In this document: positions 1-18,260 of the stretch, piece after piece
How positions within the stretch are numbered: the first letter of the stretch is position 1
How the letters are laid out: each line of letters starts with the position of its first letter
Source: an uncultured Desulfobacteraceae bacterium
Lineage (GTDB): Bacteria; Desulfobacterota; Desulfobacteria; Desulfobacterales; UBA5852
Reading direction: 5' to 3'
Assembly (NCBI GenBank): GCA_942491115.1
Contig: CALNZV010000020.1
Location: forward strand, 512,524-576,523
Length of the DNA: 64,000 nt
The notes under the pieces: generated by a model
The model's database searches: none
What the model was told of the DNA's origin: nothing
The model's input: only the letters and a program-made list of their open reading frames with translations
Made by a program: the position numbers and the translations under genes

Positions 1-24
1 TTCACCGTCGAAAGGGACGATTCC

Positions 25-546
25 ATGAAGTGGCACTGGCTGCCGATCCTGGCTCTTTGCCTGTTGAAATCAACGGCACTCGGAGCCGGCCCCACACCCG
101 GCGCGCAGCCGGCGGCCCCAGAGGGTCGGATGATCATCTCGCCGTCGGACCGATGCCCGGTCTGCGCGATGCTGCCGTCCCGGTTCCCGCGATTTGCAGC
201 GGCAATTCAATTGACGGACGGTGCCACCTACTATTTTTGCAGCCCGGGATGCATGATTACCGCCTGGCTCCGTCCGGAAGTGGTTCTGGGGATCCCCCCC
301 TCGAAGCGCCTCAGGGCCCTGGCCTCCGATTATTTCACCTCCCGTCATACCGATGCCGGGAATCTTCTGTGGGTGCCGGGTTCCGATGTGATCGGCCCGA
401 TGGGGCCGGCGGTGGTTCCACTGGGAACTGAAGAGGACATGCGCGCCTTCAGACGGCGGCACGGAGGATGGGTACCCTTCACCCTTGAAGATCTGACGAT
501 CGAACAGTGGGAGGCTATCCGGTCTGGAAGAGACCCCTCGCCATGA
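25..546 (+). CDS. NosL-family (Cu chaperone-like) secreted protein
   Basis: 173 aa. ATG at 25 with AAAGGGA upstream. Signal peptide MKWHWLPILALCLLKSTALGA. DRCPVCAM...YYFCSPGCM pattern typical of NosL-type proteins. Stop overlaps the next start (ATGA 543-546). Confidence 0.75.
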   Translation: MKWHWLPILALCLLKSTALGAGPTPGAQPAAPEGRMIISPSDRCPVCAMLPSRFPRFAAAIQLTDGATYYFCSPGCMITAWLRPEVVLGIPPSKRLRALASDYFTSRHTDAGNLLWVPGSDVIGPMGPAVVPLGTEEDMRAFRRRHGGWVPFTLEDLTIEQWEAIRSGRDPSP

Positions 547-902
547 ACGACCCTATTCTGCCAGCCGCGGATCCTCCCCGGGGCATCGCCACCAGGACCG
601 GAGACCGGATGGGACTCTCCGCGGCAATCGCCATCGGCGTCCTCGTCCTTGCCATCGCCGGAGCCGGCGCAGTCGGCATTCACATGGCGGCAACCGCCAA
701 TCGGAACTGGCCGGCAGTGCTCTCCCTGCAGGAGGCCACAGGCCTTTCAACTCCCGCCTGGAGTCCTAGCGGCCGACCATTGCGGATGCCGTCGGGGATG
801 ATCCCCGGCGTCGACCTTCGGTATGTTCCCGGGGTGCCTGCGGTGGCCCCTGCCTTGACGGATCCCACCTCCGCCCTGGTTGCTCGGGAGCCTGAAAGAT
901 GA
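543..902 (+). CDS. hypothetical single-pass membrane protein (Pro-rich C-terminal part)
   Basis: 119 aa from the ATG in the ATGA overlap at 543-546. One hydrophobic helix (LSAAIAIGVLVLAIAGAGAVGI). Ends in an ATGA overlap at 899-902. No recognisable domain. Confidence 0.5.
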   Translation: MNDPILPAADPPRGIATRTGDRMGLSAAIAIGVLVLAIAGAGAVGIHMAATANRNWPAVLSLQEATGLSTPAWSPSGRPLRMPSGMIPGVDLRYVPGVPAVAPALTDPTSALVAREPER

Positions 903-2056
903 TTCGGTTATCCCCTCCCCTCCTCTTGTGGGCCGTCCGGGACCTGATCCGCCGGCCGGTAGAATCCCTGATGCTGGTGGCCGCCCTGGGACTTTGCATC
1001 GCAATCACGGGAACGCCTCTCCTTTCCGCAGAGGCCCTCAGCCGATCCGTCGACGCCCTCATCTCCAAGGGGCCATCGGCCGTTCTCCGGAGGATTTCCC
1101 CCTTGGGGTGGGCGCCCCTTCCGCTTGAGGCGGTCGAGATCGCCGCATCCATCCCCGGCATCCTCTCCGTCAGACCACGCATATGGGGCGCGGTAATGGG
1201 GCCGGAGGGTCCCGTCACTATCATGGCCGCCGACGACCAATTGCTGGAGGGTCTCAGGCCCTTCGGCGCTGGGGATGGCCCCGAACCCGGCGAAGCCATT
1301 GCGGGCCGCCAGCTGCAATTCGCCGCCGGCCAGGGAAGGATCGAAATTCGGGGGGTCGATGGATATCGGTCTTTTCAGTTGAAGACCCTACTCGACGCCG
1401 GCGCGGACGCCGTTGCCTTCGATCTGGTCGTCTTGGACGAAACGGATGCCCGATTTCTTCTGGGCCTGCCCGACGGCCATGTCAGCGATCTGGCAGTGAA
1501 TGTCTACCATGAACAGGAACTGGCCGCCATGATGAGCGATCTGTCCTCCGGGTTTCCCTGGACGGTCGGCATCACTACCCGGGCGCAGACGCGCCGACAC
1601 TACCGCTCCTTCTTCGGCAGCCGATCCTCCCTGCAGACCGGGGCCGTGGCGTCGGCCGCCGTGGCCCTGGCCCTATTGGTGGCGACCACCCTTCGCGATC
1701 GCATCAAACGCCGGCGGGAGACCGGTCTTCTCAAGGCCTTCGGGTGGAGCACCTCCGATTTGGTCGCGGCGGAAGTGATCCGTTCCGGCGTTCTGGCCCT
1801 GAGCGCCGGCGCCCTCGGTGCCTGCCTGGCATATGGGGTCGTGTTCGGTTTTGGCACCCCATGGCTGACCGCACTTCTATTCGGATGGCAGGGCCCCATA
1901 CCCGAGATGGTGCTGACACCGAAGGGCGCCCTGGTGGTGATGATCGAAATCGCCGCCTGCATTCTCCTACCCTATCTGGCAGCTGCCGTCGGGCCGCTGC
2001 TGATATACGCCACCAAACCGGCCGAAGGATGGACCATCGACGACACGGGACCGTGA
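899..2056 (+). CDS. ABC transporter permease, FtsX/MacB/LolC-type
   Basis: 385 aa. N-terminal TM (LMLVAALGLCIAITG), a large extracytoplasmic segment, then a C-terminal 3-TM FtsX-like block (LLKAFGWSTSDLVAAEVIRSGVLALSAGALGA...). Translationally coupled on both sides. Confidence 0.8.
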   Translation: MIRLSPPLLLWAVRDLIRRPVESLMLVAALGLCIAITGTPLLSAEALSRSVDALISKGPSAVLRRISPLGWAPLPLEAVEIAASIPGILSVRPRIWGAVMGPEGPVTIMAADDQLLEGLRPFGAGDGPEPGEAIAGRQLQFAAGQGRIEIRGVDGYRSFQLKTLLDAGADAVAFDLVVLDETDARFLLGLPDGHVSDLAVNVYHEQELAAMMSDLSSGFPWTVGITTRAQTRRHYRSFFGSRSSLQTGAVASAAVALALLVATTLRDRIKRRRETGLLKAFGWSTSDLVAAEVIRSGVLALSAGALGACLAYGVVFGFGTPWLTALLFGWQGPIPEMVLTPKGALVVMIEIAACILLPYLAAAVGPLLIYATKPAEGWTIDDTGP

Positions 2057-2061
2057 TTGCT

Positions 2062-2730
2062 ATGGGATTTGCCCTCAAAGATGTCCACTTCACATACGGC
2101 CCCGAATCACCGGAAGCCTCGGCGGTATTGCGGGGGGTGAATGCCGTATTCCCCAGTGGCGCCATCGGCCTGGTCACGGGAGAAAACGGTTCAGGTAAAA
2201 CCACCCTTCTTCATCTTCTCGCCGGACTTCTCCGTCCGACCGAGGGTGAGGTCGAGGCCGACGGCCAACCGGTTTCGAGATGGACGGCCAGCCACAGAGA
2301 CCGGTGGCGACGCCGGGTGGGAATCGGATTTCAGCATCTGCGTCTTATCGGCGACCTCACCGCTCTGGAAAACGTCATGTTGCCCTCTCTGCCTCGGGAG
2401 CGATCCCTCAAGCCCCTCAGAGAGAGGGCCATGGCCGCCTTGGACAAACTGGAATGCGCCGACCTGGCATTTCGGTCAGCGGAGGGATTATCGGGAGGAG
2501 AACGCCAACGGATTGCCCTGGCCCGGGCGCTGGCTCACCACCCCCGTTACCTGATCGTCGATGAGGCGTTTTCCCATCAGGACGGGAAGGGGGCCGCATT
2601 GATCAAGACAGCCCTTGTCGGCATGGCCGAAAGGGGGGCCACCGTGGTGGCATCGGCCCACGGTTGCGAGCTCGAGTGGTGCCACCAGGCATTCCGGATT
2701 CGTCGACGAGCCCTGGAGCCCGTGAAATGA
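2062..2730 (+). CDS. ABC transporter ATP-binding protein (LolD/MacB-like)
   Basis: Walker A GENGSGKTT, signature LSGGERQR, Walker B YLIVDEA. ATG at 2062; an alternative GTG at 2053 overlaps the permease stop (GTGA 2053-2056). Confidence 0.9.
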   Translation: MGFALKDVHFTYGPESPEASAVLRGVNAVFPSGAIGLVTGENGSGKTTLLHLLAGLLRPTEGEVEADGQPVSRWTASHRDRWRRRVGIGFQHLRLIGDLTALENVMLPSLPRERSLKPLRERAMAALDKLECADLAFRSAEGLSGGERQRIALARALAHHPRYLIVDEAFSHQDGKGAALIKTALVGMAERGATVVASAHGCELEWCHQAFRIRRRALEPVK

Positions 2731-3755
2731 TCGCTCATCCGGTGGTCCTGGCCATACTGGTATCCGACGGTCTGGTCCTGGCCCTGGAAACCGGTGTGTT
2801 CCTGTTTTCGTTTCAGGCGTTGTTGAACTGGAATCCGGCATCTTCATCCAGGCGTCAGCTTCGTCTGGAGGCCATGCACGAATCGGCTGATGTGGCCGCC
2901 GGTTTTGCCTTCTGGCTCTTTGCCCTATCGACTCTGGCTCTTGGTGTGGCCGTGGCCGCACTGTTTCCGGACCTGGTTCCCGGAGCCATGTGCGGCACCG
3001 GCGTCCTCCAATCTATGGGAACGCCCGGTCCGGTGGCCCTCACTCTTCGGCTGGCGTCCCTCGCTCTTTTGTATTGCCGACGGGCGGCAATCAAACTCAA
3101 TCATTCCGATCCCAGATCTCCCGCCACCCTGTGGGATGCCCGATACCAGCTGGTCGTGTTTCCGGTGGTGGCCTGGGCTGTCGTGACCAGTGGGGGCGCC
3201 CTGACGGGAATGGACATGGAGCGGCCGGTCCATTGCTGTGCCGTCGTCTATGATGCGTTTCGCAGCATAGGGGCTGCGGGCCCCCGTGGGGAAATCCCGG
3301 ATGTCTTTCGCCTCTCGGCATTCGGTGGCTCATTCCTCCTCATCGGGTCCATTCCCCTCTATTTGGCCAGAAAAGGGACCCCAGGAATCCGTCAGGCCGC
3401 AGGCCTCCTGCTGTTGACCCTATTTTGGATGGCGGCATCGGCATCAGCCCTGGTCTATGTATTGTCGGCCTATGTGTATGAAGTCCTCCATCACCACTGT
3501 CCATGGTGCCTGTTTCTACCCATTCACCGGTCTATCGGCTTTCCTCTCTTCGCGGCCTGGATGCTGGCCGGAGCCGAATCCATGACCGCCTGCATGGCTG
3601 CAGTCCACCATAGGAGGTTTCCAGAACTCGAAGCGGTATCGTCCCGGCGATTTCGCTCTGCGGCACGGCGAACGGCAGGAGCCGCGGCCATCTTCTTCGC
3701 CATATCGTCGACACCCGCAGTGGTATGGCGGATTTGGTTCGGGGTCTGGCTGTAA
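2727..3755 (+). CDS. polytopic (~8 TM) membrane protein with conserved-looking Cys/His motifs, function unknown
   Basis: 342 aa from the ATG in the ATGA overlap at 2727-2730. About eight hydrophobic segments. Motifs MCGTG, HCCAVVYD and HHHCPWC lie in alternate loops. No family recognised. Confidence 0.7.
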   Translation: MIAHPVVLAILVSDGLVLALETGVFLFSFQALLNWNPASSSRRQLRLEAMHESADVAAGFAFWLFALSTLALGVAVAALFPDLVPGAMCGTGVLQSMGTPGPVALTLRLASLALLYCRRAAIKLNHSDPRSPATLWDARYQLVVFPVVAWAVVTSGGALTGMDMERPVHCCAVVYDAFRSIGAAGPRGEIPDVFRLSAFGGSFLLIGSIPLYLARKGTPGIRQAAGLLLLTLFWMAASASALVYVLSAYVYEVLHHHCPWCLFLPIHRSIGFPLFAAWMLAGAESMTACMAAVHHRRFPELEAVSSRRFRSAARRTAGAAAIFFAISSTPAVVWRIWFGVWL

Positions 3756-3837
3756 GACTATCGGATGGGGTGTATCAGGGGTTAACCCTCGTGAGTCGCT
3801 GGCCGTTCATGGGTGAGGGGCGGGGGGGGAGGGGAGA

Positions 3838-4047
3838 TCATGGATGGGCATTGGCGAGGCTATTGCTGGACGACGGCACCTCCCGATATTCGGGTCCGAG
3901 CCGGGGACCGGTGCGCCGATCGCTCATGATCCGCCTGTCCTTGCCGGAGCGCCGTTCCGGGATATGGCCGCTGTAAGTGTAAATGCGGCGGTCGATCCCC
4001 GATCGCCTTCCGCCATTGTCAGCAGGGTTCCCCCCCATGATCCACAT
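3838..4047 (-). CDS. small Arg-rich protein with tandem RRSGxDRR-type motifs (hypothetical)
   Basis: 69 aa (66 aa from the second ATG at 4038). Repeats: RRSGIDRR, RRSGKDRR, SDRRTG. GGAGAG precedes the ATGs and an AT-rich island lies upstream (4055-4180). No homology recognised. Confidence 0.35.
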   Translation of the reverse strand: MWIMGGNPADNGGRRSGIDRRIYTYSGHIPERRSGKDRRIMSDRRTGPRLGPEYREVPSSSNSLANAHP

Positions 4048-4087
4048 CTCTCCGGAAATTGTTGAAAAATAAACTCAATATTAGTAA

Positions 4088-4102
4088 GCAAATATCATTC
4101 CC
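4088..4102 (-). promoter_or_regulatory. possible sigma54-type -24/-12 element upstream of the small Arg-rich ORF
   Basis: Minus strand reads cgGGaatgatatttGCtt, i.e. GG-N10-GC with TTGCT at -12. It sits about 40-50 nt upstream of the ATG at 4047/4038. The match to the TGGCAC half is weak. Confidence 0.2.
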
Positions 4103-4545
4103 GGCTTTATCCCATATGGTGAATAAATATATCTAACCGATATTAAAGTGATTTTGATTTGAAGCGATAGGATCTGGATGTCGTCAGGGTCAATTCTTTT
4201 CCCAGGAGGCTGAAACCGGTTTCCTACTTTCAGCAATTCGGTTATCTAAAAAGGTCCAGAAGGCCCACAACGGTGGCCAATGGGTGCCGGATCGGATGCT
4301 GGGCAACGGTCTGAGCCTTGTCGGTCGCGTTCAGACGGTGGCAAGCCGGGGGTCTCAGATGGCTCGATCTTGCCGGTTCGCCGAGATCCGATTCAAGAAC
4401 GGTCCTCAGCGAGCGTCTTTACGGGGCCTTGGTGGCGAGTGTAGGCCAGTCGGAGAGCCGATGCCCAGAGGTCTACCAATACCCATACGGAAGGATTCTG
4501 CATCACCGCATTCAGCAATGGTTTGCCCACCGACGGGTAGAATTA

Positions 4546-4596
4546 CTAAAAAAAACAACCGGGTGCAGTGACGGCAAATCGGTCGTCTGCACCCGG
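4546..4596 (-). terminator. Rho-independent terminator after dctP
   Basis: Minus strand reads CCGGGTGCAG-(18 nt)-CTGCACCCGG followed by TTGTTTTTTTT (plus-strand A8 at 4548-4555). It starts 25 nt after the dctP stop. Confidence 0.6.
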
Positions 4597-4620
4597 CATG
4601 GGAGAGGGAAAATGACCGCC

Positions 4621-5724
4621 CTATTTCTTTAGAGCGTATTTTTCAGCGATCACATTGTAGTATGCATTTTCGGAGACCGATCCCCAAACGCCCACCTGGG
4701 CCTTGAATGTCTTGAATGCTTCATGAACCTTTCGGGACATGGCGTCTTTGTCAGCCTCTTCTTCAAGGGTTTCATCGGCCAGTTTGCGCAGGTCTTCCAT
4801 GAGCGGGTCCGGGAACCGCACCAGATTGACGTTGTGCTCCGAGATCAGGGTCTGCAAGGCGGCGCCGTTGCCGGCCTCGAATTCGGAAAGGCTCCACATG
4901 TTGGTTTCCGCCGCTACGGCGTCCACGATCGCCTGAAGATCTTTTGGCAGGGATTCGTAGGCCTTCTTGTTGAAAATAACCTCAAGGCATGTCCCCGGCT
5001 CGTGCCATCCAGGGTAGTAGTAATATTTGGCTGCTTTGTAAAATCCCATGCGAAGATCGTGCATCGGTCCGACCCATTCCGTGGCGTCGATGACCCCGCG
5101 CTCGAGGGAGGTGAAGATCTCCCCGCCGGGAAGAAGAACCACTGTCCCTCCGGCCTTGGCGATCACTTTGCCGCCCAGACCCGGGATGCGCATCTTCAAC
5201 CCCTTGTAATCGTCTATGGACTTCATCTCCTTTCGGAACCAGCCGCCCATCTGAACCCCCGTGTTGCCCTGGGGCCTGGGGATGACGTTAAAGGGAGCGT
5301 AAACCTCCTCCCACAACTGCAGTCCGCCGCCGCTGTAAAACCATGCGTTGATCCCCTGGGCGTTGAAGCCGAAAGGGACCGCTGCAAACCACTGGGCCGC
5401 CGGCACTTTACCGGCCCAGTAATATGAAGCGCCGCTGCCACATTCCACCGTTCCGTCGGAAACGGCGTCGAACACCCCCAGTGGGGGCACCAGCTCGCCG
5501 CCGGCGAACACCTGAATCTTCAGCCGCCCTTCGGAGACTTCCTCCACTCGCTTGGCAAACCGTTCCGCGCCGGTCTGAAGCACCGGCAGGTTGGGCGGCC
5601 AGGTGGAGACCATTTTCCACATGTACTTCTTCTGCGCGATGACCGCCGGAGCCGCCATCGTCGATGCCGCTGCCGCCGCCACGGCAGCAACACTCGTTTT
5701 TTTCAGGAAATCTCTTCTTTTCAT
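4621..5724 (-). CDS. dctP: TRAP transporter substrate-binding protein (DctP family, COG4663-like)
   Basis: 367 aa. Tat-like signal MKRRDFLKKTSVAAVAAAAASTMAAPAVIAQ. WKMVSTWPPNLPVLQTGAERFAKRVEEVSEGRLKIQVFAGGELVP is typical of TRAP solute receptors. AGGAAAGGAG RBS. Confidence 0.9.
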   Translation of the reverse strand: MKRRDFLKKTSVAAVAAAAASTMAAPAVIAQKKYMWKMVSTWPPNLPVLQTGAERFAKRVEEVSEGRLKIQVFAGGELVPPLGVFDAVSDGTVECGSGASYYWAGKVPAAQWFAAVPFGFNAQGINAWFYSGGGLQLWEEVYAPFNVIPRPQGNTGVQMGGWFRKEMKSIDDYKGLKMRIPGLGGKVIAKAGGTVVLLPGGEIFTSLERGVIDATEWVGPMHDLRMGFYKAAKYYYYPGWHEPGTCLEVIFNKKAYESLPKDLQAIVDAVAAETNMWSLSEFEAGNGAALQTLISEHNVNLVRFPDPLMEDLRKLADETLEEEADKDAMSRKVHEAFKTFKAQVGVWGSVSENAYYNVIAEKYALKK

Positions 5725-7772: not shown

Positions 7773-8195
7773 GGTTATTCCCTTTCTGACAAAAAAAAGC
7801 CGTCCGCTGTTGCGGGCGGCCGACGACGGCATCTTGGGTGACCGGCTGGGGATATGGGATCATGCAAAGGAGCACACCCTCGTTCATCGAAGTCGGAAAC
7901 CCTCAGTTCACAGGAGTATCCGCCGGTTCGGCTTGATGTTGGATAGAAATTGAGACTTCCATTTCGTATATTAGGGATTAAGATGGGTGTCAACCGGAGA
8001 CCGGTCGTTCGGGGGACCGACTGCCCAGATTCATTGACCTTCCCCCCCATTATTGAAGAGCACGCGACCCCGGCCCGGGCATGCCGCGTTCACCATTGCA
8101 GAGGGGTTTCCCGCGCATCCTTCGGGGAGACCGATACAGGGGAAAGATTCGTTGATGGACAGCGCTCCTCTCCGACCCCGACCGAGGATCACACG

Positions 8196-9419
8196 ATGTC
8201 TTCTTTTTCAAACGCCGAAAAGCAACTACTGACCGTGACCAGTTTCGGTCACTTCATGAGTCACTTCAACATGCTGACATTCCCCGCCCTGGCCATTCCA
8301 CTTGCCGGGGGACTGGACTTGCCCCTGGCCGAGGTCATGGGCCTGTCCTTTCCCATGTACCTGCTGTTCGGCCTAACCGCTCTCCCCTGGGGAATGATAG
8401 GAGACCGCTGGCGATCCGATCGTCTCATGGTCGTCTTCTTTCTCGGTGCTGGAATGGGGGGATTGGGTGCCGCTGTATTTATGGAATCACCGACGATGAT
8501 CGCCGCATCCCTTGGGGTGGTGGGCCTGTTTTCCGGCATTTACCACCCCATCGGGCTGGGAATGATCTCAAAGGGCGTGACACGCATCAGCGTTGCCATG
8601 GGCATCAACGGGATGTTCGGAAATCTGGGGTTGGCCATGGCACCGCTCCTGGCCGGCGTTGCCAATTGGATCTGGGGGCCAAGGGCGGCCTTTTTGATTC
8701 TGGCTGCCTTCAATTTCGCGGGAGCCCTCTGGGCCGCCAGGCTGCCCCATGGGACACCGCCGACCCGATCGGCATCAGTGGCCGAATCCCCGAACGGAAG
8801 CGGGCGTCAGGCCTTCGTGATCCTCCTGATGGCAATGATGCTGGGGGGAATCGTCTATCGGGGAGCCACTCTGACGACCCCCCCATTGCTGGAAATGAAC
8901 CTTCAAGGACTTCACCAGATGTTGACGCCTTTTGCCGGAGCCGCCCTGACCCCGAATCTGGAGGCCACCATCATCACCTCGGGTATTTTTCTGGTGGGAA
9001 TGATCGGTCAGTACACCGGCGGCAGGATGGCTGAACGGTTCGATCCCCGCTGGTGTTATTTGCTGTTTCACGCCTCCGCCCTTCCCATGGCGTTCATGAT
9101 GGCGAGGACCGCCGATCTGGGCCTGGTATCGGCTGCCGTGGTCTATTTTTTCTTTCTGCTCGGCATGCAGCCCGCGGAAAACACCTTGTTGGCCCGTCTG
9201 ACGCCGAAGCGTCTCCACCACTCGGCTTTCGGCGTCAAATTCGTTCTGACCTTCGGTGTCGGGGCCCTTGCCGTCAAAATGGTCGAAGCCATCGAGACGG
9301 CGCTCGATCTGGGTGCGGTGTTCATGGCCCTCGGCATCGGTTCAACCCTCCTGGTTGCCGTGATCCTGCTGCTCATCCGTCGAACAACCTCCGCGGTCGA
9401 TACCGTCGCAGCCAGTTGA
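8196..9419 (+). CDS. MFS transporter
   Basis: 407 aa from the ATG at 8196 (MSSFSNAEKQLLTVTSFGHFMSHF...). About 12 hydrophobic segments. The upstream part of the ORF (7950-8195, TTG start) looks non-coding. Confidence 0.85.
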   Translation: MSSFSNAEKQLLTVTSFGHFMSHFNMLTFPALAIPLAGGLDLPLAEVMGLSFPMYLLFGLTALPWGMIGDRWRSDRLMVVFFLGAGMGGLGAAVFMESPTMIAASLGVVGLFSGIYHPIGLGMISKGVTRISVAMGINGMFGNLGLAMAPLLAGVANWIWGPRAAFLILAAFNFAGALWAARLPHGTPPTRSASVAESPNGSGRQAFVILLMAMMLGGIVYRGATLTTPPLLEMNLQGLHQMLTPFAGAALTPNLEATIITSGIFLVGMIGQYTGGRMAERFDPRWCYLLFHASALPMAFMMARTADLGLVSAAVVYFFFLLGMQPAENTLLARLTPKRLHHSAFGVKFVLTFGVGALAVKMVEAIETALDLGAVFMALGIGSTLLVAVILLLIRRTTSAVDTVAAS

Positions 9420-9431
9420 AAGGCCTCCCCA

Positions 9432-10277
9432 ATGAACGACCGCTCATTGCCGATGGATGGATCGCAGACCGTGAGGGATTTGACGGGCGTCATCTTCGAC
9501 ATCAAAAAATTCGCCATTCACGACGGCCCCGGCATCCGAACCACCGTGTTTCTGAAGGGGTGCCCCATGACCTGCCATTGGTGCCACAATCCGGAGGGGC
9601 AGCGGCCCGACCCTGAACCGGTTCCCTGCCCCGGCCCGGCCCCTGGACCGGAAATGGCTACGGAAACCGTCATCGGCCGCCGGGTGCGCGCCGGAGACGT
9701 TCTCGCCGAAATCGAAAAAGACCGCCTTTTCTACGATGAAAGCGGCGGAGGTGCCACCTTTTCAGGAGGCGAGCCTCTGATGCAGCCCGATTTCCTTGAA
9801 GCGCTTCTCGACGGCTGTCGATCCGCATCGATCCACACGGTGGTGGACACCACGGGCTGCGTCCCTGCCCGCGTCTTGATGAGGATTATGGGTAAAGTGG
9901 ATTTGTTTCACTACGATATGAAACTGATGGACAGCCACATCCATCGGCGATTTACCGGTGTGCCGGTCGAGCCGGTTCTCGATAACCTCCAACGGCTGTC
10001 GGCTGCCGGCCGGCCTGTCGTCATCCGTTTTCCGTTGGTGCCGGGCGTCACCGACGACGACGACAACCTGACGGCCATTTCCGACTGGCTCCGTTCACTG
10101 CCGACGCCGCCCGTCCGGCTCGATGTGCTTCCCTTCCACCATCTGCATGCCGGCAAATACGCCCGTCTGGGCCGACGGGACCCCATGGTCTGCACCGACG
10201 GGGCATCGGCCGAGGAGGCCAGATCCGCCGCCGATTTTTTCAGAACCGACGGTTTCACCGTTACCATTGGAGGATGA
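9432..10277 (+). CDS. glycyl-radical enzyme activating protein (radical SAM)
   Basis: 281 aa. DGPGIRTTVFLKGCPMTCHWCHNPE (CX3CX2C). GGGATFSGGEPL motif. Stop overlaps the GRE start (ATGA 10274-10277). No ferredoxin-like CX2CX2CX3C insert is present. Confidence 0.9.
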   Translation: MNDRSLPMDGSQTVRDLTGVIFDIKKFAIHDGPGIRTTVFLKGCPMTCHWCHNPEGQRPDPEPVPCPGPAPGPEMATETVIGRRVRAGDVLAEIEKDRLFYDESGGGATFSGGEPLMQPDFLEALLDGCRSASIHTVVDTTGCVPARVLMRIMGKVDLFHYDMKLMDSHIHRRFTGVPVEPVLDNLQRLSAAGRPVVIRFPLVPGVTDDDDNLTAISDWLRSLPTPPVRLDVLPFHHLHAGKYARLGRRDPMVCTDGASAEEARSAADFFRTDGFTVTIGG

Positions 10278-12646
10278 ACCCGATGACACCGAGAATCCAG
10301 CAGCTTCGACGGGCCAGTCTGGAGGCCCCTGCATCCATCTCCCGGGAGAGGGCACAGCTCGCCACGGGATTCATGAAAGGGGCCGAAGGGGCCGGCGACG
10401 CGATTCCCGTCATGCGGGCCAAACTCTTCAGGCACATCCTCGAGCACAAGTCCATCTGGATCGGCGACGGGGAACTCATCGTGGGGGAAAGGGGTCCCAT
10501 GCCGAAGGCGACACCCACCTACCCCGAGATCTGTCTCCACACCATCGACGACCTTGACACCCTCGCCTCCAGGGAGAAGGTGGCATTCGCCGTGGACGAT
10601 GGGGTGAAGCAGGCCTATGAGGAAACGATCATTCCCTACTGGCAAGGGAAGACCATCCGGGAGAAGATTTTCTCCTCTGTGCCGAAAGCCTGGATCGACG
10701 CCTACGATGCCGGTGTATTCACCGAATTTCAAGAGCAGCGCTCACCCGGGCACACCGTGCTGGGCGACAAGATTTACCGCCATGGATTCCTTTATATGAT
10801 CCAAGAGATCAGGGCAACAGTGGCCGCCCTGGATTTCGTGAACGACCCGAGAGCCCTCGACCGCAGAGACGAACTTCAGGCCATGGAAATCGCCGCCGGG
10901 GGGCTCATCGCCTTTGCCGGTCGGTATGCCGATGCCCTGGCTGCGCGGGCTGCTGAAGAGACCGATGTCCAACGGGCTGACGAGTTGTCGACGATGGCCC
11001 TTATCTGCCGCAACGTACCCGCCCGGGCGCCCGAGACCTTCTGGGAAGCCCTTCAGTACTACTGGTTCGTCCACTTGGGGGTCATCACCGAGCTCAATCC
11101 CTGGGATGCCTTCAATCCCGGGCGGCTCGACCAGCACCTGTATCCGTTCTACCGGCGGGAGATCGACGCGGGAACCCTCGATCGTGAGAGCGCCAGGGAA
11201 CTGCTACAGGCCTTCTGGATCAAGTTCAACAATCACCCCGCCCCGCCCAAGGTCGGGATTACGGCCAAGGAAAGCAACACCTACGTGGACTTCGCCCTGA
11301 TCAATATCGGCGGCGTCCGACCCGACGGCGCCGATGCCGTCAACGACTTGTCCTACCTGATGCTCGAGGTGGTTGAAGAGATGCGGCTGCTGCAGCCAAG
11401 CGCCATGGTGCAGTTGAGCAAAAAAAACCCGGATCGTTTCCTCAAGCGGGCCCTTTCCATCATCAAAACCGGTTTCGGTCAGCCGTCCCTGTTCAACACC
11501 GACGGCATTATCCAGCAGTTGACGGGCCAGGGGAAACGCATCGAGGATGCCCGCTGCGGCGGGGCCAGCGGTTGCGTCGAAAGCGGGGCCTTCGGCAAGG
11601 AATGCTATATTCTGACGGGGTATTTCAACCTGCCGAAGATCCTTGAACTCACCCTTCACAACGGCCTGGATCCCCGAACCGGCCGGCAAATCGGCCCTGA
11701 AACCGGAGACCCACGCTCCTTCGACAGCTTCGCCGCCGTTATGGAGGCGTTTTCACGTCAGCTCCGCCATTTCATCGACATCAAGATCCGGGGAAACAAT
11801 ATCATCGAGAGGATCAACGCGAAGTACATGCCGGTCCCCTTTCTCAGCCTGTTGATCGACGATTGTATATCCAGGGGCCTGGACTACAACGAGGGGGGCG
11901 CCCGGTACAACACATCCTATATCCAAGGGGTGGGGCTGGGCACCCTGACCGACAGCCTGTCCTCGATCCGCACCCATGTATTCGAGCGGGGCGTGCTGAC
12001 CATGGGGGAATTGCTGGCATTGCTGGAATCGGATTTCGACGGCAGTGAGGCACTGCGACGTCGTTTTCTCGAAAACACGCCACGCTACGGCAATGATGAC
12101 GACGGGGCCGACGACCTGCTATCCGAAATCTTCGAGCAGTTTCACGGAGCGGTGGACGGACGCCCCAACACCAAGGGGGGGCACCACCGGATCAATCTAC
12201 TTCCCACGACTAGCCACGTCTATTTCGGCAGCCTCCTTGGCGCCACGCCCGACGGGCGGCAATCGGGCGCCCCTCTGTCGGAAGGCATCTCACCCGTGCA
12301 GGGCGCCGACCGCAGGGGGCCGACGGCGGTGTTGAAATCCGCCGCCAAAATCGATCACCTCCGCACCGGGGGGACGCTGTTGAACCAGAAGTTCACCCCG
12401 ACGATTCTCGAGGACGATGCCGGCATCGACCGACTGGCAAGCTTGGTTCGAACCTATTTCCGGATGGATGGACATCACATTCAGTTCAATGTGGTGGATG
12501 CCGACACCCTCAGGCGTGCCCAGTCGGAGCCCGAGAACTACCGCGATCTGATCGTCCGGGTGGCGGGCTATAGCGACTATTTTGTCGATCTGACGCCCGA
12601 ACTTCAGGAAGAAATCATCGGCAGAACTGCCCATTCGGTTATCTGA
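10274..12646 (+). CDS. hypD: glycyl radical enzyme, trans-4-hydroxy-L-proline dehydratase (HypD)-like
   Basis: 790 aa. Glycyl radical motif RVAGYSDYF near the C-terminus. Thiyl loop GGASGCVESG (Cys-x-Glu, eliminase type, not the PFL Cys-Cys). Length and residues at 160, 278, 434, 436, 450, 645 and 765 coincide with the HypD residues as I recall them. Alternative start at ATG 10283 (GGAGG at 10269-10273). Confidence 0.7.
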   Translation: MNPMTPRIQQLRRASLEAPASISRERAQLATGFMKGAEGAGDAIPVMRAKLFRHILEHKSIWIGDGELIVGERGPMPKATPTYPEICLHTIDDLDTLASREKVAFAVDDGVKQAYEETIIPYWQGKTIREKIFSSVPKAWIDAYDAGVFTEFQEQRSPGHTVLGDKIYRHGFLYMIQEIRATVAALDFVNDPRALDRRDELQAMEIAAGGLIAFAGRYADALAARAAEETDVQRADELSTMALICRNVPARAPETFWEALQYYWFVHLGVITELNPWDAFNPGRLDQHLYPFYRREIDAGTLDRESARELLQAFWIKFNNHPAPPKVGITAKESNTYVDFALINIGGVRPDGADAVNDLSYLMLEVVEEMRLLQPSAMVQLSKKNPDRFLKRALSIIKTGFGQPSLFNTDGIIQQLTGQGKRIEDARCGGASGCVESGAFGKECYILTGYFNLPKILELTLHNGLDPRTGRQIGPETGDPRSFDSFAAVMEAFSRQLRHFIDIKIRGNNIIERINAKYMPVPFLSLLIDDCISRGLDYNEGGARYNTSYIQGVGLGTLTDSLSSIRTHVFERGVLTMGELLALLESDFDGSEALRRRFLENTPRYGNDDDGADDLLSEIFEQFHGAVDGRPNTKGGHHRINLLPTTSHVYFGSLLGATPDGRQSGAPLSEGISPVQGADRRGPTAVLKSAAKIDHLRTGGTLLNQKFTPTILEDDAGIDRLASLVRTYFRMDGHHIQFNVVDADTLRRAQSEPENYRDLIVRVAGYSDYFVDLTPELQEEIIGRTAHSVI

Positions 12647-15835: not shown

Positions 15836-16379
15836 GTTCCGACGGTTCCGGGTCGTCCCCATCGCCGGCGTCGCTCTGCCCGGTATCCGCCGAGGCCGGT
15901 GTTCGATCCTCGAGGTATTCACCGAAGGCCCGGACCAGATCGCCAAATTGGCGGGTCTGATTTTCGGTCAGCTCTTTCAGGGCTTCCATGGTCGTCGACT
16001 GAACATCGCCCTCACCGGTAACCACACCGCTCAGGTAACGAATCATCCGCGCCTGCTCCTCATTTTCTTTTCGGAGCGCATCCCGCTCCTCCTCAAGGCG
16101 GCGGTAGTCGTTGAGGGGAACGGCCCCCACCATCTGGAGCCAGCCCTCATAGGCTGCCTGGAAATCCGTCATGCCCGGTGGCAGGGGATCGGCCTCCGCG
16201 CTGCGCTGCCCCTCATTGCCCGGTGTCAACCGATAGGTTTGTCGAAACATTTCGGCCAGCCCGTCAGCGCTCGCCACACCGCCTCTGAACCACTTCGTCA
16301 TCTCATCGATCTGGGTCTGGCCCCGTGCCGCATTGATAAACAGATTTCCGATGAACTCCAAAAATCTCGGATCCATCAT
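15825..16379 (-). CDS. PHA synthase-associated coiled-coil protein (PhaE-like or class IV PhaR-like partner, tentative)
   Basis: 184 aa. Start overlaps the phaC stop (ATGA at 16376-16379). Central heptad-like segment (YRRLEEERDALRKENEEQARMIRYL) and an acidic Pro-rich tail. Confidence 0.5.
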   Translation of the reverse strand: MMDPRFLEFIGNLFINAARGQTQIDEMTKWFRGGVASADGLAEMFRQTYRLTPGNEGQRSAEADPLPPGMTDFQAAYEGWLQMVGAVPLNDYRRLEEERDALRKENEEQARMIRYLSGVVTGEGDVQSTTMEALKELTENQTRQFGDLVRAFGEYLEDRTPASADTGQSDAGDGDDPEPSEPTP

Positions 16380-17959
16380 TGGTCCCTCCCGGCTGTTTCG
16401 GCATCCAGCCGAAGCTGGAATTCAACAGGTCCGGCACAGCCGGTATTGGTGCAGACGTAGGCTCCGTCTCCGGCTTCCGGATCAAGGTTTGATGTGGCTA
16501 TGGCAACGTGTCCCCGGGGATAGGAGGACAGTTCGACGTCGATGAAGTCCATCGGCGCCAGCGCCGCCGCCGGATCCACGAGATTGTCCTTCTCCGCATA
16601 GCAGATCAGGTAGGGTATCTTTCGATCCCTGATGCGCTTGAAATTGAGCTGACGGCCAAACAATCGCACCGGCAAGGTGCCGTCATCGGAAACCGGTCGC
16701 CGGTAAGATTCAAAACTCAAGCGGGTGACCGCTTCCGGAAGGTCCACCTGGTCATAGAGCAGCCAGTGGTTGATGGCCAGGGAGGATTTGCTGAACCCTT
16801 TCTCCGGGGGGTCGAACCGGTCCATCATCTCGAGATCGCGGTAAAAGGCGGTTACCGGCCCTTCGAGTTCGATGCTTTTCAACTTGTAGACCCAGCTCAT
16901 GATCCCCCCGTCCACCACCCGGTTGCCGTTCGGCAGCACTTTGACGGCATAGCCGAGATCTCGAAACCCCTCGGGTAGCAGGCGAATGAATGCCGCCAAA
17001 TCCTTGCTTCGGGACCCGTCCATCGGGGACACGCAGGTCATCAGGGCATCGGCAAGTCCGTCGAGTTCCCCTGACAGAAGCGTCAGCATGGCCAGAAAGC
17101 CCCCCTGACAATAGCCGCAGAGGGTAGCGGGCCGACCGTGGGTTTTCAGGATGGCTTCACAAAAAAACCGCGTATCCGACGCATCTTCCTCTCCGGTCAT
17201 GGTCTGGACCGCCGGATGCTCGGAGATGGGTTTGATGATACGAATGAATGTCGGAAACCCCTGATTGGCAAAGGCATGAACGAAACTGCGGTTTTCAGCG
17301 GGTAAAAACGCCATGATGTTGGGGCCGAGGACCGACGGGGGAATGATCAGAATGGGTTTGGTGTCATTTCGGACTTCGACGCCCTGCCTGTTGGGGAGGA
17401 CCTGTAAGAGACGGAATCGGTCGGTTTCTGCGATGAGTCGGTAGCCGTCGTCGTCGAAGTGAAAGCCGAATTCCTCCTTGATATCATGGATGGCCTTGGG
17501 GAAACGTCGCGAAACCGCATCCATGAGCGCATACTGCCGCTGACTCAGCTGAAGCAGCTTCTCGAGGCCGCTTCCGTTGCCGACATCCAGACAGCCGGCC
17601 CATGCATCCATCCACTGGGGCCAGCGCCTCCCATGAAAGGTAGCAACGGCGTCCATGCTGCCGTTCAGGCAGCGGGCGGCCAGTTCGGCATTGACTGACA
17701 ACAGCGACAGATAATCTTGCAGAGAGTCCCACCGGGGACTCTCAATCCATTTTCGCTGTTCTCGCCGGACGAAGATGGCCGCAGCGTTCATCAGCGGCTC
17801 TAAAAAACCGGATGAATAGCCGGCCATCCCCTCCCAGTAGCGGGTAGCTGTCTGCCATTGCGAGGAGAAGAGGCGCAACCACAGTTCCCCTGTCGGGGTC
17901 AGAAGATCCAATGGGGTCGGGGCAGCAAAGGGATCGGTTCGAAGTGGGGTCCCCGCCAT
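16376..17959 (-). CDS. phaC: poly(R)-hydroxyalkanoate synthase PhaC
   Basis: 527 aa from the ATG at 17959 (GAGGAGAGGAG RBS). Alpha/beta fold with the PHA-synthase lipase-like box LCGYCQGG (G-x-C-x-G-G). Confidence 0.85.
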   Translation of the reverse strand: MAGTPLRTDPFAAPTPLDLLTPTGELWLRLFSSQWQTATRYWEGMAGYSSGFLEPLMNAAAIFVRREQRKWIESPRWDSLQDYLSLLSVNAELAARCLNGSMDAVATFHGRRWPQWMDAWAGCLDVGNGSGLEKLLQLSQRQYALMDAVSRRFPKAIHDIKEEFGFHFDDDGYRLIAETDRFRLLQVLPNRQGVEVRNDTKPILIIPPSVLGPNIMAFLPAENRSFVHAFANQGFPTFIRIIKPISEHPAVQTMTGEEDASDTRFFCEAILKTHGRPATLCGYCQGGFLAMLTLLSGELDGLADALMTCVSPMDGSRSKDLAAFIRLLPEGFRDLGYAVKVLPNGNRVVDGGIMSWVYKLKSIELEGPVTAFYRDLEMMDRFDPPEKGFSKSSLAINHWLLYDQVDLPEAVTRLSFESYRRPVSDDGTLPVRLFGRQLNFKRIRDRKIPYLICYAEKDNLVDPAAALAPMDFIDVELSSYPRGHVAIATSNLDPEAGDGAYVCTNTGCAGPVEFQLRLDAETAGRDQ

Positions 17960-17999
17960 GACGGCTCCTCTCCTCGGCAACAGCGTCGAGTGGCAGAGA

Positions 18000-18260
18000 T
18001 TATTCCCAGGCCTTGATTGCTGCGGCATATCGATCGGACGATTCCAGCATTGTCTTGTGGAGAAAGTCCGAGTTTTGCTTCATGTTGCCGGCCCATTGCT
18101 GGATGATCGATTTCCCGGTATCCGGCAGATAGGGAAGAGTCTCAATGCCGATCCGAATGGCCGTCTGGGCATGGTCCTGAAGCGCCGCCATGGTTTTAAC
18201 GGAGCTGCGAACCATTTCCCTGTTGTAAGCGCCCACGCGCGTCATCTGGTTTTTGATCAT
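18000..18260 (-). CDS. phasin-like protein (paralog 1)
   Basis: 86 aa (GAGGTGG RBS). Aligns by eye with the neighbouring 93-aa ORF (LPYLPDTGKSIIQQWAGNMKQ vs VPGMPEEGRKMVQEWADAYKK). Confidence 0.55.
   Translation of the reverse strand: MIKNQMTRVGAYNREMVRSSVKTMAALQDHAQTAIRIGIETLPYLPDTGKSIIQQWAGNMKQNSDFLHKTMLESSDRYAAAIKAWE

What the first reader, a model, noticed from the sequence alone, without database searches (positions are those of the whole stretch)
25..3755. Translationally chained NosL-like / FtsX-type ABC / Cys-His-rich 8-TM protein operon with no nos genes nearby
Seen directly: five same-strand ORFs are linked by 4-nt start/stop overlaps (ATGA at 543-546, 899-902 and 2727-2730; GTGA at 2053-2056). 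This implies coupled translation and probably a stoichiometric complex. The parts are a secreted NosL-type protein (CPVCAM ... FCSPGCM), a 119-aa single-pass Pro-rich protein, a 4-TM FtsX/MacB-type permease with a large outward-facing loop, a LolD/MacB-like ATPase, and a 342-aa ~8-TM protein with Cys/His motifs. Established knowledge: NosL is a Cu(I) chaperone of N2O reductase maturation, and MacB/LolCDE-type ABC systems act on periplasmic substrates by mechanotransmission. No nosZ, nosD, nosF, nosY or nosR is visible in this window. Inference: this is a periplasm-facing metal or metallocofactor handling or extrusion machine that, to my knowledge, has not been described as a unit.
Basis: partly seen in the sequence, partly recalled or inferred. 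Interest (0 to 1): 0.75.

Follow-up and report, generated by a model that had tools for sequence, protein, structure and literature searches.

The report
NosL chaperone, ABC motor, cysteine-rich membrane partner
This is a real, conserved and so far undescribed gene module of sulfate-reducing bacteria that joins a copper-chaperone-like protein to an ATP-driven membrane motor and two cysteine-rich membrane proteins; it most likely moves copper or a similar metal at the outer face of the cell membrane and has nothing to do with nitrous oxide reduction.

Summary
Five same-strand genes (25-3755) are chained by 4-nt start/stop overlaps. They encode a NosL-family protein, a 119-aa single-pass protein, a LolC/MacB-fold FtsX permease, its ATPase, and a 342-aa 8-TM protein of an unannotated family.

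The order recurs in about 75 of 80 related loci. Most are Desulfobacterales, with some Myxococcota, Planctomycetota and Acidobacteriota.

The window cuts off a sixth member. A divergently transcribed DsbD_2 membrane protein (conserved His/Cys/Met) lies just upstream in 51 of 58 loci, including the closest relative. No nos genes recur nearby.

A Myxococcales genome fuses NosL to the 8-TM protein, keeps the divergent DsbD_2 and has no ABC. So the core is NosL + 8-TM + DsbD_2, and the ABC motor is an add-on.

The NosL-like protein keeps all three Cu(I) ligands of solved NosL. It turns the 3Cys:1Asp zinc site into Cys4 and is mostly not a lipoprotein. The 8-TM protein shows five invariant Cys plus Met/His on periplasmic loops. 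Its resemblance to VKOR is sub-threshold.

Best reading (inferred): ATP-assisted Cu(I) or soft-metal handover at the periplasmic membrane face. Main rival: a thiol-redox module. It is a new variant of chaperone-plus-ABC systems, and the function is untested.

The parts
1..24 (+). End of the divergent promoter/5' leader region, with the ribosome-binding site (GAAAGGGA) of the NosL-like gene. The rest of the intergenic region and the divergent DsbD_2 gene lie outside the window.
   Evidence: The sequence aligns by eye with the last 23 nt of the L002 intergenic region, which follows a TTGACA-N17-TTAAAA promoter-like site. DsbD_2 is divergent upstream in 51/58 loci.
25..546 (+). NosL-family periplasmic metallochaperone-like protein (173 aa). 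It has a signal peptide of the SPase I type. Its Cys4 site is C44, C47, C72, C76, and its putative Cu(I) ligands are C47, M49, M126.
   Evidence: Pfam NosL E=1.1e-15. PDB NosL 7OSF/7OG7 E=1e-6 to 3e-5, with aligned ligands. Ligand roles come from PMC8457098. All six residues are invariant in 37 syntenic copies. The N-termini are mostly not lipoboxes.
543..902 (+). Small single-pass membrane protein (119 aa). It has a cytoplasmic DR(L/M) motif, one TM helix, and a periplasmic tail with the conserved motif P-S-G-R-x-x-R ... P-x-V-D-x-R. It belongs to no described family.
   Evidence: No Pfam/NCBIfam hit. A 28-sequence family alignment has invariant G77 and R81. The family is present just upstream of FtsX in 56/71 loci and absent in a subclade.
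899..2056 (+). Type VII ABC (FtsX/MacB/LolC-fold) permease (385 aa). It has 4 TM helices and a ~185-residue periplasmic domain between TM1 and TM2. No Cys, His or Met is conserved in that domain.
   Evidence: Pfam FtsX 27.4 bits. AlphaFold2 pLDDT 89. Foldseek PDB top hits are LolE/LolC, MacB, Spr0694-0695, HrtB, YtrF, BceB and YbbP, with E down to 1e-16.
2053..2730 (+). ABC ATPase (225 aa from GTG 2053; alternative ATG at 2062). All catalytic motifs are present: Walker A 43-50 GENGSGKT, Q-loop 92-94, signature 146-150 LSGGE, Walker B 166-171 YLIVDE, H-loop 201-203.
   Evidence: Pfam ABC_tran E=1.4e-30. NCBIfam best hits are FtsE and LolD, both below their equivalog cutoffs.
2727..3755 (+). 8-TM membrane protein (342 aa) of an unannotated family, with its N-terminus outside. 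Three periplasmic loops carry invariant M88-C89 (PGAMCGTGV), C170-C171 (PVxCCAVVYD) and H256-x-C258-P-W-C261 (HHHCPWCLFLP). E284 lies mid-membrane.
   Evidence: No Pfam/NCBIfam/PDB sequence hit. At least 422 homologues, all named 'hypothetical' or unnamed. 914 representative clusters. AlphaFold2 pLDDT 91. No Foldseek PDB match at E<=0.001. A natural NosL-8TM fusion fixes the N-terminus in the periplasm.

Best explanation
The five genes are the larger arm of a conserved six-gene module. Its core is three proteins: a soluble periplasmic NosL-type metallochaperone, a new 8-TM protein that displays Cys/Met/His on its periplasmic loops, and a divergently encoded DsbD_2 membrane protein lined with His/Cys/Met.

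In most Desulfobacterales, two further parts are bolted onto this core and translationally coupled to it: a LolCDE/MacB-fold (type VII) ABC motor and, in about 80% of loci, a small single-pass protein.

Most likely the module traffics Cu(I), or a similarly thiophilic metal, at the periplasmic face of the inner membrane. The proposed steps are:
1. DsbD_2 carries the metal (or the reducing power that keeps the thiols free) across the membrane.
2. The 8-TM protein holds the metal at its periplasmic thiolate site.
3. The ABC motor, which has no metal ligands of its own, uses ATP-driven mechanotransmission to force handover between the 8-TM protein and the NosL-like chaperone. This parallels LolCDE handing lipoproteins to LolA, and NosFY switching NosD between NosL and NosZ.
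4. The chaperone then serves, or drains, periplasmic targets.

The module is not part of N2O-reductase maturation.

Shown here: the gene content, the coupling, the synteny, the folds, the conserved residues, the topology and the fusion. Inferred: the metal's identity, the direction of flow, physical complex formation and the handover step.
For: 1. The unit is real.
- The order NosL-(small)-FtsX-ABC-8TM recurs in nearly all of 80 loci that have room for it.
- The junction overlaps are conserved.
- DsbD_2 is divergent upstream in 51/58 loci, including L002.

2. The core is defined by natural variants.
- In Myxococcales contig DASXVQ010000154.1, NosL (52% id) is fused to the 8-TM protein (36% id).
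- That gene still sits next to a divergent DsbD_2, and the locus has no FtsX or ABC.

3. The NosL chemistry is retained.
- Solved NosL binds Cu(I) through C62, M64 and M145, and Zn through C59, C62, C88 and D92 (PMC8457098).
- The aligned residues here are C47, M49, M126 and C44, C47, C72, C76.
- All are invariant in 37 syntenic copies.
- The same paper notes that NosL occurs outside nos clusters as a more widely used chaperone.

4. Soft-metal-type ligands are conserved on all three core proteins.
- 8-TM protein: M88-C89, C170-C171, H256, C258, C261. These lie on loops poor in Lys/Arg, so they face the periplasm.
- DsbD_2: H24, C25, M28, C29, H46, H50, C157, M217, M220 are conserved in at least 95% of copies.
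- COG2836/DsbD_2-type proteins with HMA domains were inferred to belong to the CsoR copper regulon of gut Firmicutes (PMC4938975).

5. The motor is a mechanotransmission type.
- ORF3 has the LolE/LolC/MacB/HrtB fold (E=1e-16).
- It has no conserved Cys/His/Met.
- The ATPase motifs are intact.

6. The precedent for a NosL-plus-ABC relay is NosL solved in complex entries 7OSF-7OSJ and 7ZNQ, together with the summary in PMC13068155.
Against: - There is no experimental datum for any member, and no metal-responsive regulator or operator was identified.
- Desulfobacterales have few known periplasmic cuproenzymes, so a client is missing.
- The Asp-to-Cys change makes a Cys4 site. That could hold Zn, a second Cu(I) or another metal, or act as a redox switch.
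- The 8-TM protein has no conserved Cys/Met/His inside the membrane, so it is not an obvious channel.
- Its CC loop and CxxC sit where VKOR has its two Cys pairs, and quinone-biosynthesis genes are frequent neighbours. Both facts favour the redox rival.
- The ABC is dispensable in one lineage, so ATP-driven handover cannot be essential to the core chemistry.
Confidence: 0.45

Rival explanations
1. Thiol-disulfide redox module. The 8-TM protein is a distant VKOR/DsbB-like quinone-coupled oxidoreductase, with CxxC next to a quinone site and the flexible CC loop as the shuttle. DsbD_2 is a CcdA-like conduit for reducing equivalents. Together they set the redox state of the Cys4 site of the NosL-like protein, or of another periplasmic client, and so gate metal binding and release. 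The ABC remodels the client.
For: - 9 of 60 family members give weak Pfam VKOR hits (best E=6e-4).
- Three hits checked are in one register: TM4-TM7 against profile positions 11-120, ending at the CxxC.
- The CC loop is the only low-confidence part of the model (pLDDT<50 at 173-188). I know the shuttle loops of VKOR and DsbB to be mobile, which fits.
- UbiE (passes TIGR01934) and a UbiA-family prenyltransferase flank the module in 33 loci in at least four different arrangements.
- DsbD_2 belongs to the DsbD/CcdA-like group by its Pfam name.
Against: - All VKOR hits are below the Pfam cutoff (17.6 vs 27.5 bits).
- Profile-profile comparison with VKOR alignments gives 0.2-0.3% probability, and only 13-17 columns align around the CxxC. 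Those alignments are mostly vertebrate.
- Foldseek against the PDB returns no VKOR or DsbB among the 50 best matches shown, none with E<=0.001.
- There are five, not four, invariant Cys, with adjacent invariant Met and His. I do not know of such neighbours in DsbB or VKOR.
- DsbD_2 conserves nine His/Cys/Met, far more than an electron conduit needs.
Confidence: 0.2
2. Detoxification. The same parts work outward to sequester and expel toxic thiophilic metals (Cu(I), Ag(I), Hg(II), Cd(II)) from the periplasm or the outer leaflet of the inner membrane. This would be an anaerobe's substitute for Cus- or Mer-type systems.
For: - Solved type VII ABC systems with this fold include exporters acting from the membrane or periplasm (MacB, HrtBA).
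- The NosL fold is related to MerB/TRASH (PMC8261052).
- From general knowledge, Cu(I) is most toxic under anoxia.
Against: - No membrane-fusion or outer-membrane partner recurs in the neighbourhood.
- No metal sensor gene or operator was found.
- The fusion variant lacks any ATPase.
- From general knowledge, free Cu is very low in sulfidic habitats.
Confidence: 0.15
3. It is simply the tail of an N2O-reductase (nos) cluster whose nosZ/nosDFY genes lie upstream of position 1.
For: ORF1 is a NosL-family protein, and the window ends 24 nt upstream of it.
Against: - In the closest relative (L002) and in 51/58 loci, the upstream gene is a divergent DsbD_2.
- The recurrent neighbours I examined, some only by eye, are UbiE, UbiA, PrkA/SpoVR/DUF444, amino-acid ABC parts, cytochrome bd and Cys biosynthesis genes. 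None is a nos gene.
- The ABC here has the FtsX/MacB fold. From my own knowledge NosY is a different, ABC-2-type permease.
- No NosD-sized gene lies between or beside the five genes, and Pfam finds nothing in ORF2 or ORF5.
Confidence: 0.02
4. A generic MacB/LolCDE-like transporter (peptide, lipid or lipoprotein handling) that merely happens to sit beside unrelated genes.
For: The best structural matches are LolCDE and MacB, and the ATPase is closest to FtsE/LolD.
Against: - Five-gene synteny with translational coupling persists across several phyla.
- The permease is a divergent subfamily with no equivalog match.
- NosL and the 8-TM protein are fused in one lineage and keep DsbD_2 without the ABC.
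Confidence: 0.05

Closest known systems
NosL-NosDFY copper relay of N2O-reductase maturation (P. stutzeri, S. denitrificans; PDB 7OSF-7OSJ, 7ZNQ, 7OG7)
   Same: Both use a periplasmic NosL-family chaperone with the same Cu(I) ligand triad (Cys, Met, Met) and a cysteine-rich second site. Both are encoded together with an ABC ATPase/permease pair. In the Nos system NosL relays copper to periplasmic NosD held by the NosFY ABC system (PMC13068155).
   Different: There is no NosZ, NosD, NosR or NosY. The permease has the FtsX/MacB (type VII) fold, which from my own knowledge is not the fold of NosY. The chaperone is mostly not a lipoprotein and has Cys in place of the Zn-ligand Asp. Three other proteins accompany it: the 8-TM Cys protein, DsbD_2 and the small single-pass protein.
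LolCDE-LolA, HrtBA and MacB (type VII mechanotransmission ABC systems)
   Same: ORF3 has the same fold (Foldseek E=1e-16 to 1e-12). It has 4 TM helices plus a periplasmic domain between TM1 and TM2, and a separate LolD/FtsE-like ATPase. The logic of extracting cargo at the membrane surface and passing it to a periplasmic carrier fits the gene set.
   Different: No equivalog-level match (NCBIfam scores are far below the cutoffs). There is one permease gene rather than LolC plus LolE. There is no MacA/TolC-type partner. The presumed cargo is a metal held by a partner membrane protein, not a lipid, haem or lipoprotein.
VKOR / DsbB quinone-dependent thiol oxidoreductases
   Same: A CxxC follows a TM helix on the periplasmic side, and a second Cys pair lies on a flexible periplasmic loop one helical hairpin earlier. 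There are weak Pfam VKOR hits in a consistent register, and quinone-biosynthesis genes are frequent neighbours.
   Different: The protein has 8 TM helices rather than 4-5. It has five invariant Cys with adjacent Met and His, and the second pair is vicinal (CC). The Pfam hits are below threshold, hhalign gives 0.2-0.3%, and Foldseek finds no match.
COG2836 / DsbD_2 (PF13386) membrane proteins linked to copper homeostasis
   Same: The divergent partner gene in relatives scores 125 bits against PF13386 and carries the GHCxxMCGP and PCG motifs. Members of this group with HMA domains were inferred to be CsoR-regulated (PMC4938975).
   Different: The gene is not in the window itself. It has no HMA or DUF2318 domain here, and its function is unproven in any organism I could find.

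Membership tests
NosL (PF05573) copper chaperone | Matches the family profile above the curated threshold | tested here: met
   58.5 bits against a cutoff of 24, E=1.1e-15, covering 124 of 131 profile positions. PDB NosL chains match at E=1e-6 to 3e-5.
NosL (PF05573) copper chaperone | Strictly conserved Cu(I) ligands Cys62, Met64, Met145 (S. denitrificans numbering) | tested here: met
   They align to C47, M49 and M126 (roles from PMC8457098). All are invariant in 37 syntenic copies.
NosL (PF05573) copper chaperone | Zn site 3Cys:1Asp (C59, C62, C88, D92) | tested here: not met
   The three Cys are kept (C44, C47, C72), but the Asp position is Cys76, invariant in this clade. This gives a Cys4, TRASH-like site. 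The paper itself says the Zn ligands vary among NosL orthologues.
NosL (PF05573) copper chaperone | Lipoprotein anchored by an N-terminal lipobox Cys | tested here: not met
   The window protein has a signal peptide ending ...STALGA|G with no proper lipobox. Most of the 37 relatives likewise look like SPase I substrates, and a few have possible lipoboxes (by inspection; no predictor was run).
NosL (PF05573) copper chaperone | Encoded in a nos cluster and needed for NosZ metallation | tested here: not met
   No nos genes appear in the annotated part of the window or among the recurrent neighbours I examined in 80 loci.
NosL (PF05573) copper chaperone | Binds Cu(I) and delivers it to a client | not testable with these tools
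   This needs metal analysis of the purified protein.
Type VII ABC transporter (FtsX/MacB/LolCDE) | FtsX domain permease with 4 TM helices and a large periplasmic domain between TM1 and TM2 | tested here: met
   PF02687 27.4 bits against a cutoff of 25.5. The AlphaFold2 model (pLDDT 89) has a long helix at 20-56, a mixed alpha/beta domain at 61-227, and three long helices at 244-270, 285-317 and 344-371.
Type VII ABC transporter (FtsX/MacB/LolCDE) | Fold match to solved members | tested here: met
   Foldseek PDB: LolE 9rld_E E=9.8e-17 (TM 0.64), MacB 5gko E=1.3e-13, Spr0694-0695 5xu1, HrtB 7w78, YtrF 9o9x. 66 matches have E<=0.001.
Type VII ABC transporter (FtsX/MacB/LolCDE) | Cognate ATPase with intact Walker A/B, signature and H-loop motifs | tested here: met
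   GENGSGKT 43-50, LSGGE 146-150, YLIVDE 166-171, SAH 201-203. FtsE and LolD are the best NCBIfam hits, both below equivalog cutoffs.
MacAB-TolC tripartite pump | Membrane-fusion protein and outer-membrane channel partners | tested here: not met
   No such gene lies in the operon, and none was seen among the recurrent neighbour clusters I inspected. ORF2 is a 119-aa single-pass protein.
VKOR (PF07884) | Matches the family profile above threshold | tested here: not met
   The window protein gives no hit. 9 of 60 relatives give hits with best E=6e-4, and the three hits examined score 15.1-17.6 bits, below the 27.5 cutoff. hhalign against VKOR alignments gives 0.2-0.3%.
VKOR (PF07884) | CxxC at the periplasmic start of the last core helix, plus a loop Cys pair after the first core helix | tested here: inconclusive
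   The pattern is present (C258-x-x-C261 after TM6; C170-C171 after TM4), and the weak Pfam hits share that register. However, the loop pair is vicinal and a fifth invariant Cys exists.
VKOR (PF07884) | Four-helix-bundle fold with a quinone pocket | tested here: inconclusive
DsbD_2 (PF13386), the sixth gene of the module | Present next to the operon | tested here: inconclusive
   It lies outside the window. It is present and divergent in 51/58 relatives with room, including L002 (125 bits against a cutoff of 24.9). The source genome itself could not be fetched.

The most novel reading that the evidence does not exclude
The 8-TM protein is not a relay station but the client. On this reading it is a membrane-bound metalloprotein whose periplasmic pocket (five Cys, one Met, His residues) holds a multinuclear copper-thiolate or metal-sulfide cluster. 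The NosL-like chaperone, DsbD_2 and the type VII ABC would be its dedicated assembly line. That would be a second, evolutionarily independent counterpart of CuZ assembly by NosDFYL, possibly feeding electrons to or from the quinone pool.
Probability: 0.1. Interest if true: 0.85.

Novelty: new variant of a known kind. Interest (0 to 1): 0.62.

Why it matters
NosL is known only as the copper donor for N2O reductase, yet structural work already hinted that it is used more widely. This module gives that hint a concrete, testable form.

- It is a conserved partner set: a new Cys-rich membrane protein family with about 900 sequence clusters and no annotation, a DsbD_2 protein, and a LolCDE-like motor.
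- It occurs in strict anaerobes that do not need N2O reductase.
- If the copper reading is right, it would show how sulfate reducers handle a metal that is both scarce and highly toxic in sulfidic, anoxic habitats.
- It would also add metal handover to the short list of jobs done by mechanotransmission ABC systems.
- If the redox reading is right, it would define a new branch of quinone-linked thiol oxidoreductases coupled to a metallochaperone.
- Either way, two protein families would gain a first functional context.

Tried and rejected
- **Fetching the source contig to see upstream of position 1.** Exact look-ups of ORF1 and ORF5 found no gene record, although ORF5 is in the protein collection on a 1.34-Mb NCBI contig. 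I used the 83%-identical relative L002 instead.
- **VKOR homology.**
  - phmmer with human VKORC1 was uninformative.
  - Local hhalign gave 0.14%.
  - hhalign with a 3-sequence alignment gave 0.3% and with a 20-sequence alignment 0.2%.
  - The last large homology search returned only vertebrate VKORs, so a good bacterial VKOR profile was never obtained.
- **PDB sequence search with the 8-TM profile.** No hit.
- **Wider relatives of the FtsX permease.** The search returned only 45 proteins of the same subfamily, so I could not test whether NosL+FtsX pairs exist without the 8-TM gene.
- **Regulatory signals.**
  - No Rfam hit in 1-5000.
  - No convincing terminator after ORF5.
  - A k-mer scan of the divergent intergenic regions showed only promoter-like TTGACA...TTTCCTTTAC strings and a lineage-specific ATTGCGT repeat, with no recognisable metal-sensor operator.
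- **Apparent NosL-less or solo 8-TM loci** (L023, L029, L033, L036, L069, L072). Most oddities were wrong-frame ORFs from my crude caller in high-GC DNA. L023 and L033 are true solo copies with unrelated neighbours.
- **Literature.** Searches for NosL with FtsX, ABC transporters, Desulfobacterota, TRASH and DsbD_2 found no description of this unit. The NosDFY cryo-EM paper is not held.

Full report
**1. The observation**

The window carries five same-strand ORFs: 25-546, 543-902, 899-2056, 2053-2730 and 2727-3755.
- Each junction is a 4-nt overlap in which the start codon shares bases with the upstream TGA. ATGA lies at 543-546, 899-902 and 2727-2730, and GTGA at 2053-2056.
ORF1 is NosL (PF05573, E=1.1e-15). 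ORF3 has an FtsX domain (27.4 bits, cutoff 25.5). ORF4 is an ABC ATPase whose best named relatives are FtsE and LolD.
- ORF2 and ORF5 match nothing in Pfam or NCBIfam.
- The ATPase has all catalytic motifs.

**2. A conserved unit, larger than the window shows**

ORF5 belongs to a sizeable family.
- It has at least 422 clusters at 90% identity, all 'hypothetical' or unnamed.
- An exhaustive profile search found 914 representative clusters at E<=1e-3, almost all 340-346 aa.

A pattern scan of one genome per species found 163 genomes with a relative. I analysed the best 80 loci. Most are Desulfobacterales. A few are labelled Myxococcota, Planctomycetaceae, Acidobacteria or Pseudomonadota.

The synteny is strong.
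- tblastn with the five window proteins shows the same order, NosL-(gap)-FtsX-ABC-8TM, in essentially every locus with enough sequence.
- The ABC-to-8TM junction can be read as a 4-nt overlap in 59 of 79 loci. The FtsX-to-ABC junction is a 4-nt overlap in 28 and a 1-nt overlap in 18 of 76. My start-codon choice favours short gaps.
- ORF2 is a genuine family with a cytoplasmic DRL motif, one TM helix and a periplasmic PSGRxLR...VDxR motif. It is present in 56 of 71 loci and missing in a subclade where NosL abuts FtsX.

- A ~235-aa gene lies on the opposite strand directly upstream of NosL.
- It is a DsbD_2 protein (PF13386, 125 bits).
- It is present and divergent in 51 of 58 loci with room.
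- In the closest relative, L002 (83-87% protein identity), it ends 134 nt before NosL. The window's first 24 nt align by eye with the end of that intergenic region. The window therefore starts just inside the divergent promoter region.

**3. Not a nos cluster**

- Upstream of NosL in relatives are DsbD_2 and often UbiE.
- Other recurrent neighbours I examined, some only by eye, are a UbiA-family prenyltransferase, PrkA/SpoVR/DUF444, amino-acid ABC components, cytochrome bd and cysteine-synthesis genes.
- Downstream in the window are a TRAP transporter, an MFS protein and a glycyl-radical enzyme with its activase.
- None of these is a nos gene. The ABC has the FtsX/MacB fold, not the fold I know for NosY.

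**4. The parts**

*NosL-like protein.*
[quoted passage not shown] Zn is bound by C59, C62, C88 and D92. Cu(I) is bound by C62, M64 and M145. The three Cu ligands are strictly conserved and essential (PMC8457098).
- In the alignment to solved NosL chains these positions are C44, C47, C72, C76 and C47, M49, M126. All six are invariant in 37 syntenic copies.
- What is particular is that the hard Asp ligand, which the authors say disfavours a second Cu(I), is replaced by Cys. This makes a Cys4 site.
- The protein has a plain signal peptide rather than a lipobox in most copies.

*Permease.*
- The AlphaFold2 model (pLDDT 89) matches LolE/LolC, MacB, Spr0694-0695, HrtB, YtrF, BceB and YbbP, with E down to 1e-16.
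- Its periplasmic domain conserves no Cys, His or Met. It looks like a motor or adaptor, not a metal site.

*8-TM protein.*
- The model is confident (pLDDT 91). It has eight long helices and three short helices on the loops after TM2, TM4 and TM6.
- Exactly these loops carry the invariant residues: M88-C89, C170-C171, H256, C258 and C261.
- Lys/Arg counts put the other loops in the cytoplasm, so the Cys loops face the periplasm.
- Foldseek found no solved relative.

*DsbD_2 partner.*
- Across 40 copies, at least 95% conserve H24, C25, M28, C29, H46, H50, C157, M217 and M220.

**5. A natural experiment**

- Among the representatives is a 493-aa protein, HEY3450284.1 from a Myxococcales MAG. Residues 38-159 are 52% identical to ORF1, and residues 240-476 are 36% identical to ORF5.
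- Its locus has the divergent DsbD_2 next door but no FtsX, ABC or ORF2.
- The fusion confirms that the N-terminus of the 8-TM protein is periplasmic.
- It argues that NosL and the 8-TM protein work in physical contact.
- It shows that the conserved core is NosL + 8-TM + DsbD_2, with the ABC motor as an addition.

**6. Mechanism**

All three core proteins display conserved Cys together with Met or His. From general knowledge this is the ligand set of Cu(I)-handling proteins.
- NosL's own Cu(I) triad is intact.
- DsbD_2/COG2836 proteins with HMA domains were inferred to belong to the CsoR copper regulon in gut Firmicutes (PMC4938975).

I therefore favour a Cu(I), or at least soft-metal, relay at the periplasmic face of the membrane.
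- DsbD_2 acts as the transmembrane conduit, for metal or for reducing power.
- The 8-TM protein acts as the membrane-side site.
- NosL acts as the soluble carrier.
- The type VII ABC acts as an ATP-driven device that forces handover. This parallels LolCDE passing cargo to LolA. It also parallels the Nos system, where NosL relays copper to NosD held by the NosFY ABC system (PMC13068155; PDB 7OSF-7OSJ).

The direction of flow (supply or detoxification), the metal's identity and the client are all unknown. I put this reading at about 0.45.

**7. The main rival: a thiol-redox module**

For:
- 9 of 60 family members give weak Pfam VKOR hits.
- The three I inspected share one register that maps TM4-TM7, the CC loop and the CxxC onto VKOR's core.
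- The CC loop is the only disordered part of the model.
- UbiE-type (passes TIGR01934) and UbiA-type genes flank the module in 33 loci in at least four different arrangements. That suggests more than inherited synteny.

Against:
- All hits are below threshold.
- hhalign against VKOR alignments gives 0.2-0.3%. These alignments were mostly vertebrate, because my last large search returned no bacterial VKORs.
- Foldseek shows no VKOR or DsbB.
- The fifth Cys and the flanking Met and His are not expected for such enzymes.

I rate this rival at about 0.2. The two readings are not exclusive, because redox control of a Cys4 chaperone site is conceivable.

**8. Comparison and novelty**

- The nearest described system in logic is NosL-NosDFY. 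The nearest in motor fold is LolCDE/MacB/HrtBA.
- ORF1 meets the profile and Cu-ligand criteria of NosL. It fails the lipoprotein, Zn-Asp and nos-context criteria.
- ORF3/ORF4 meet the criteria for a type VII ABC system, but not for a tripartite MacAB-TolC pump.
- ORF5 cannot be filed under VKOR.
- I found no paper describing this gene set.
- I class it as a new variant of a known kind (chaperone plus ABC-assisted periplasmic handover). It contains two unannotated protein families.
- Interest is moderate to high (0.62). The unit is solid and testable, but every functional statement is inference.

Noticed in passing
window 3838-4047 (- strand): A 69-aa ORF with repeated RRSGxDRR motifs, preceded by an AT-rich stretch. 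The protein is 93% identical in L002 (DNA about 81%) and 74% identical in L003, directly after the 8-TM gene. Copies also lie 6-9 kb downstream in L005, L012, L020, L028 and L030. It is a conserved small protein of unknown function.
   Followed up: partly
relatives L001-L081 (e.g. L005:4168-6196, L001:11425-14078, L016, L050): A UbiE-type quinone C-methyltransferase and a divergent UbiA-family prenyltransferase flank the module in 33 loci. The UbiE type passes TIGR01934, and its best hit is the methyl-plastoquinone enzyme MpqE, below that model's cutoff. The pair lies upstream, downstream or split, in at least four arrangements. This may be a functional link to the quinone pool, or to a prenylated cofactor.
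   Followed up: partly
L082:7145-9482 (Myxococcales MAG DASXVQ010000154.1): A single 493-aa gene fuses NosL to the 8-TM protein. It sits next to a divergent DsbD_2, and the locus has no FtsX or ABC genes. NCBI annotates it simply as NosL.
   Followed up: yes
relatives, about 10 kb downstream of the 8-TM gene (e.g. L038:13447-14484): In 11 loci the edge of the fetched region holds the C-terminal half of a P-type ATPase (DKTGTL and GDGVNDA motifs, read by eye). It lies beyond a conserved PrkA-SpoVR-DUF444-PrkA block. I did not check whether it is a copper (P1B) pump.
   Followed up: no
window 9432-12646 (+): A radical-SAM activase (281 aa) is followed, with overlapping stop and start, by a 790-aa pyruvate-formate-lyase-like glycyl-radical enzyme. 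An MFS transporter lies just upstream at 7950-9419. The substrate is unknown.
   Followed up: no
window 16376-18028 (-): A 550-aa ORF with no Pfam match at E<=1e-5.
   Followed up: no
divergent intergenic regions of L001, L013, L014, L026, L027, L038, L041; and of L040, L054, L061: Two lineage-specific conserved strings lie between DsbD_2 and NosL. One is a promoter-like TTGACA...N...TT(T/A)CCTTTAC. The other is a repeated ATTGCGT(T/C)(A/G)A around a TATAGT/TATACT box. Either could be an operator for an unidentified regulator.
   Followed up: partly
L023:9938-11029 and L033:9986-11029: Two Desulfobacteraceae genomes carry a solo copy of the 8-TM gene, away from any NosL or FtsX gene and next to a class-II-aldolase-like gene (identified by eye). 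The protein can therefore also occur outside the module.
   Followed up: partly
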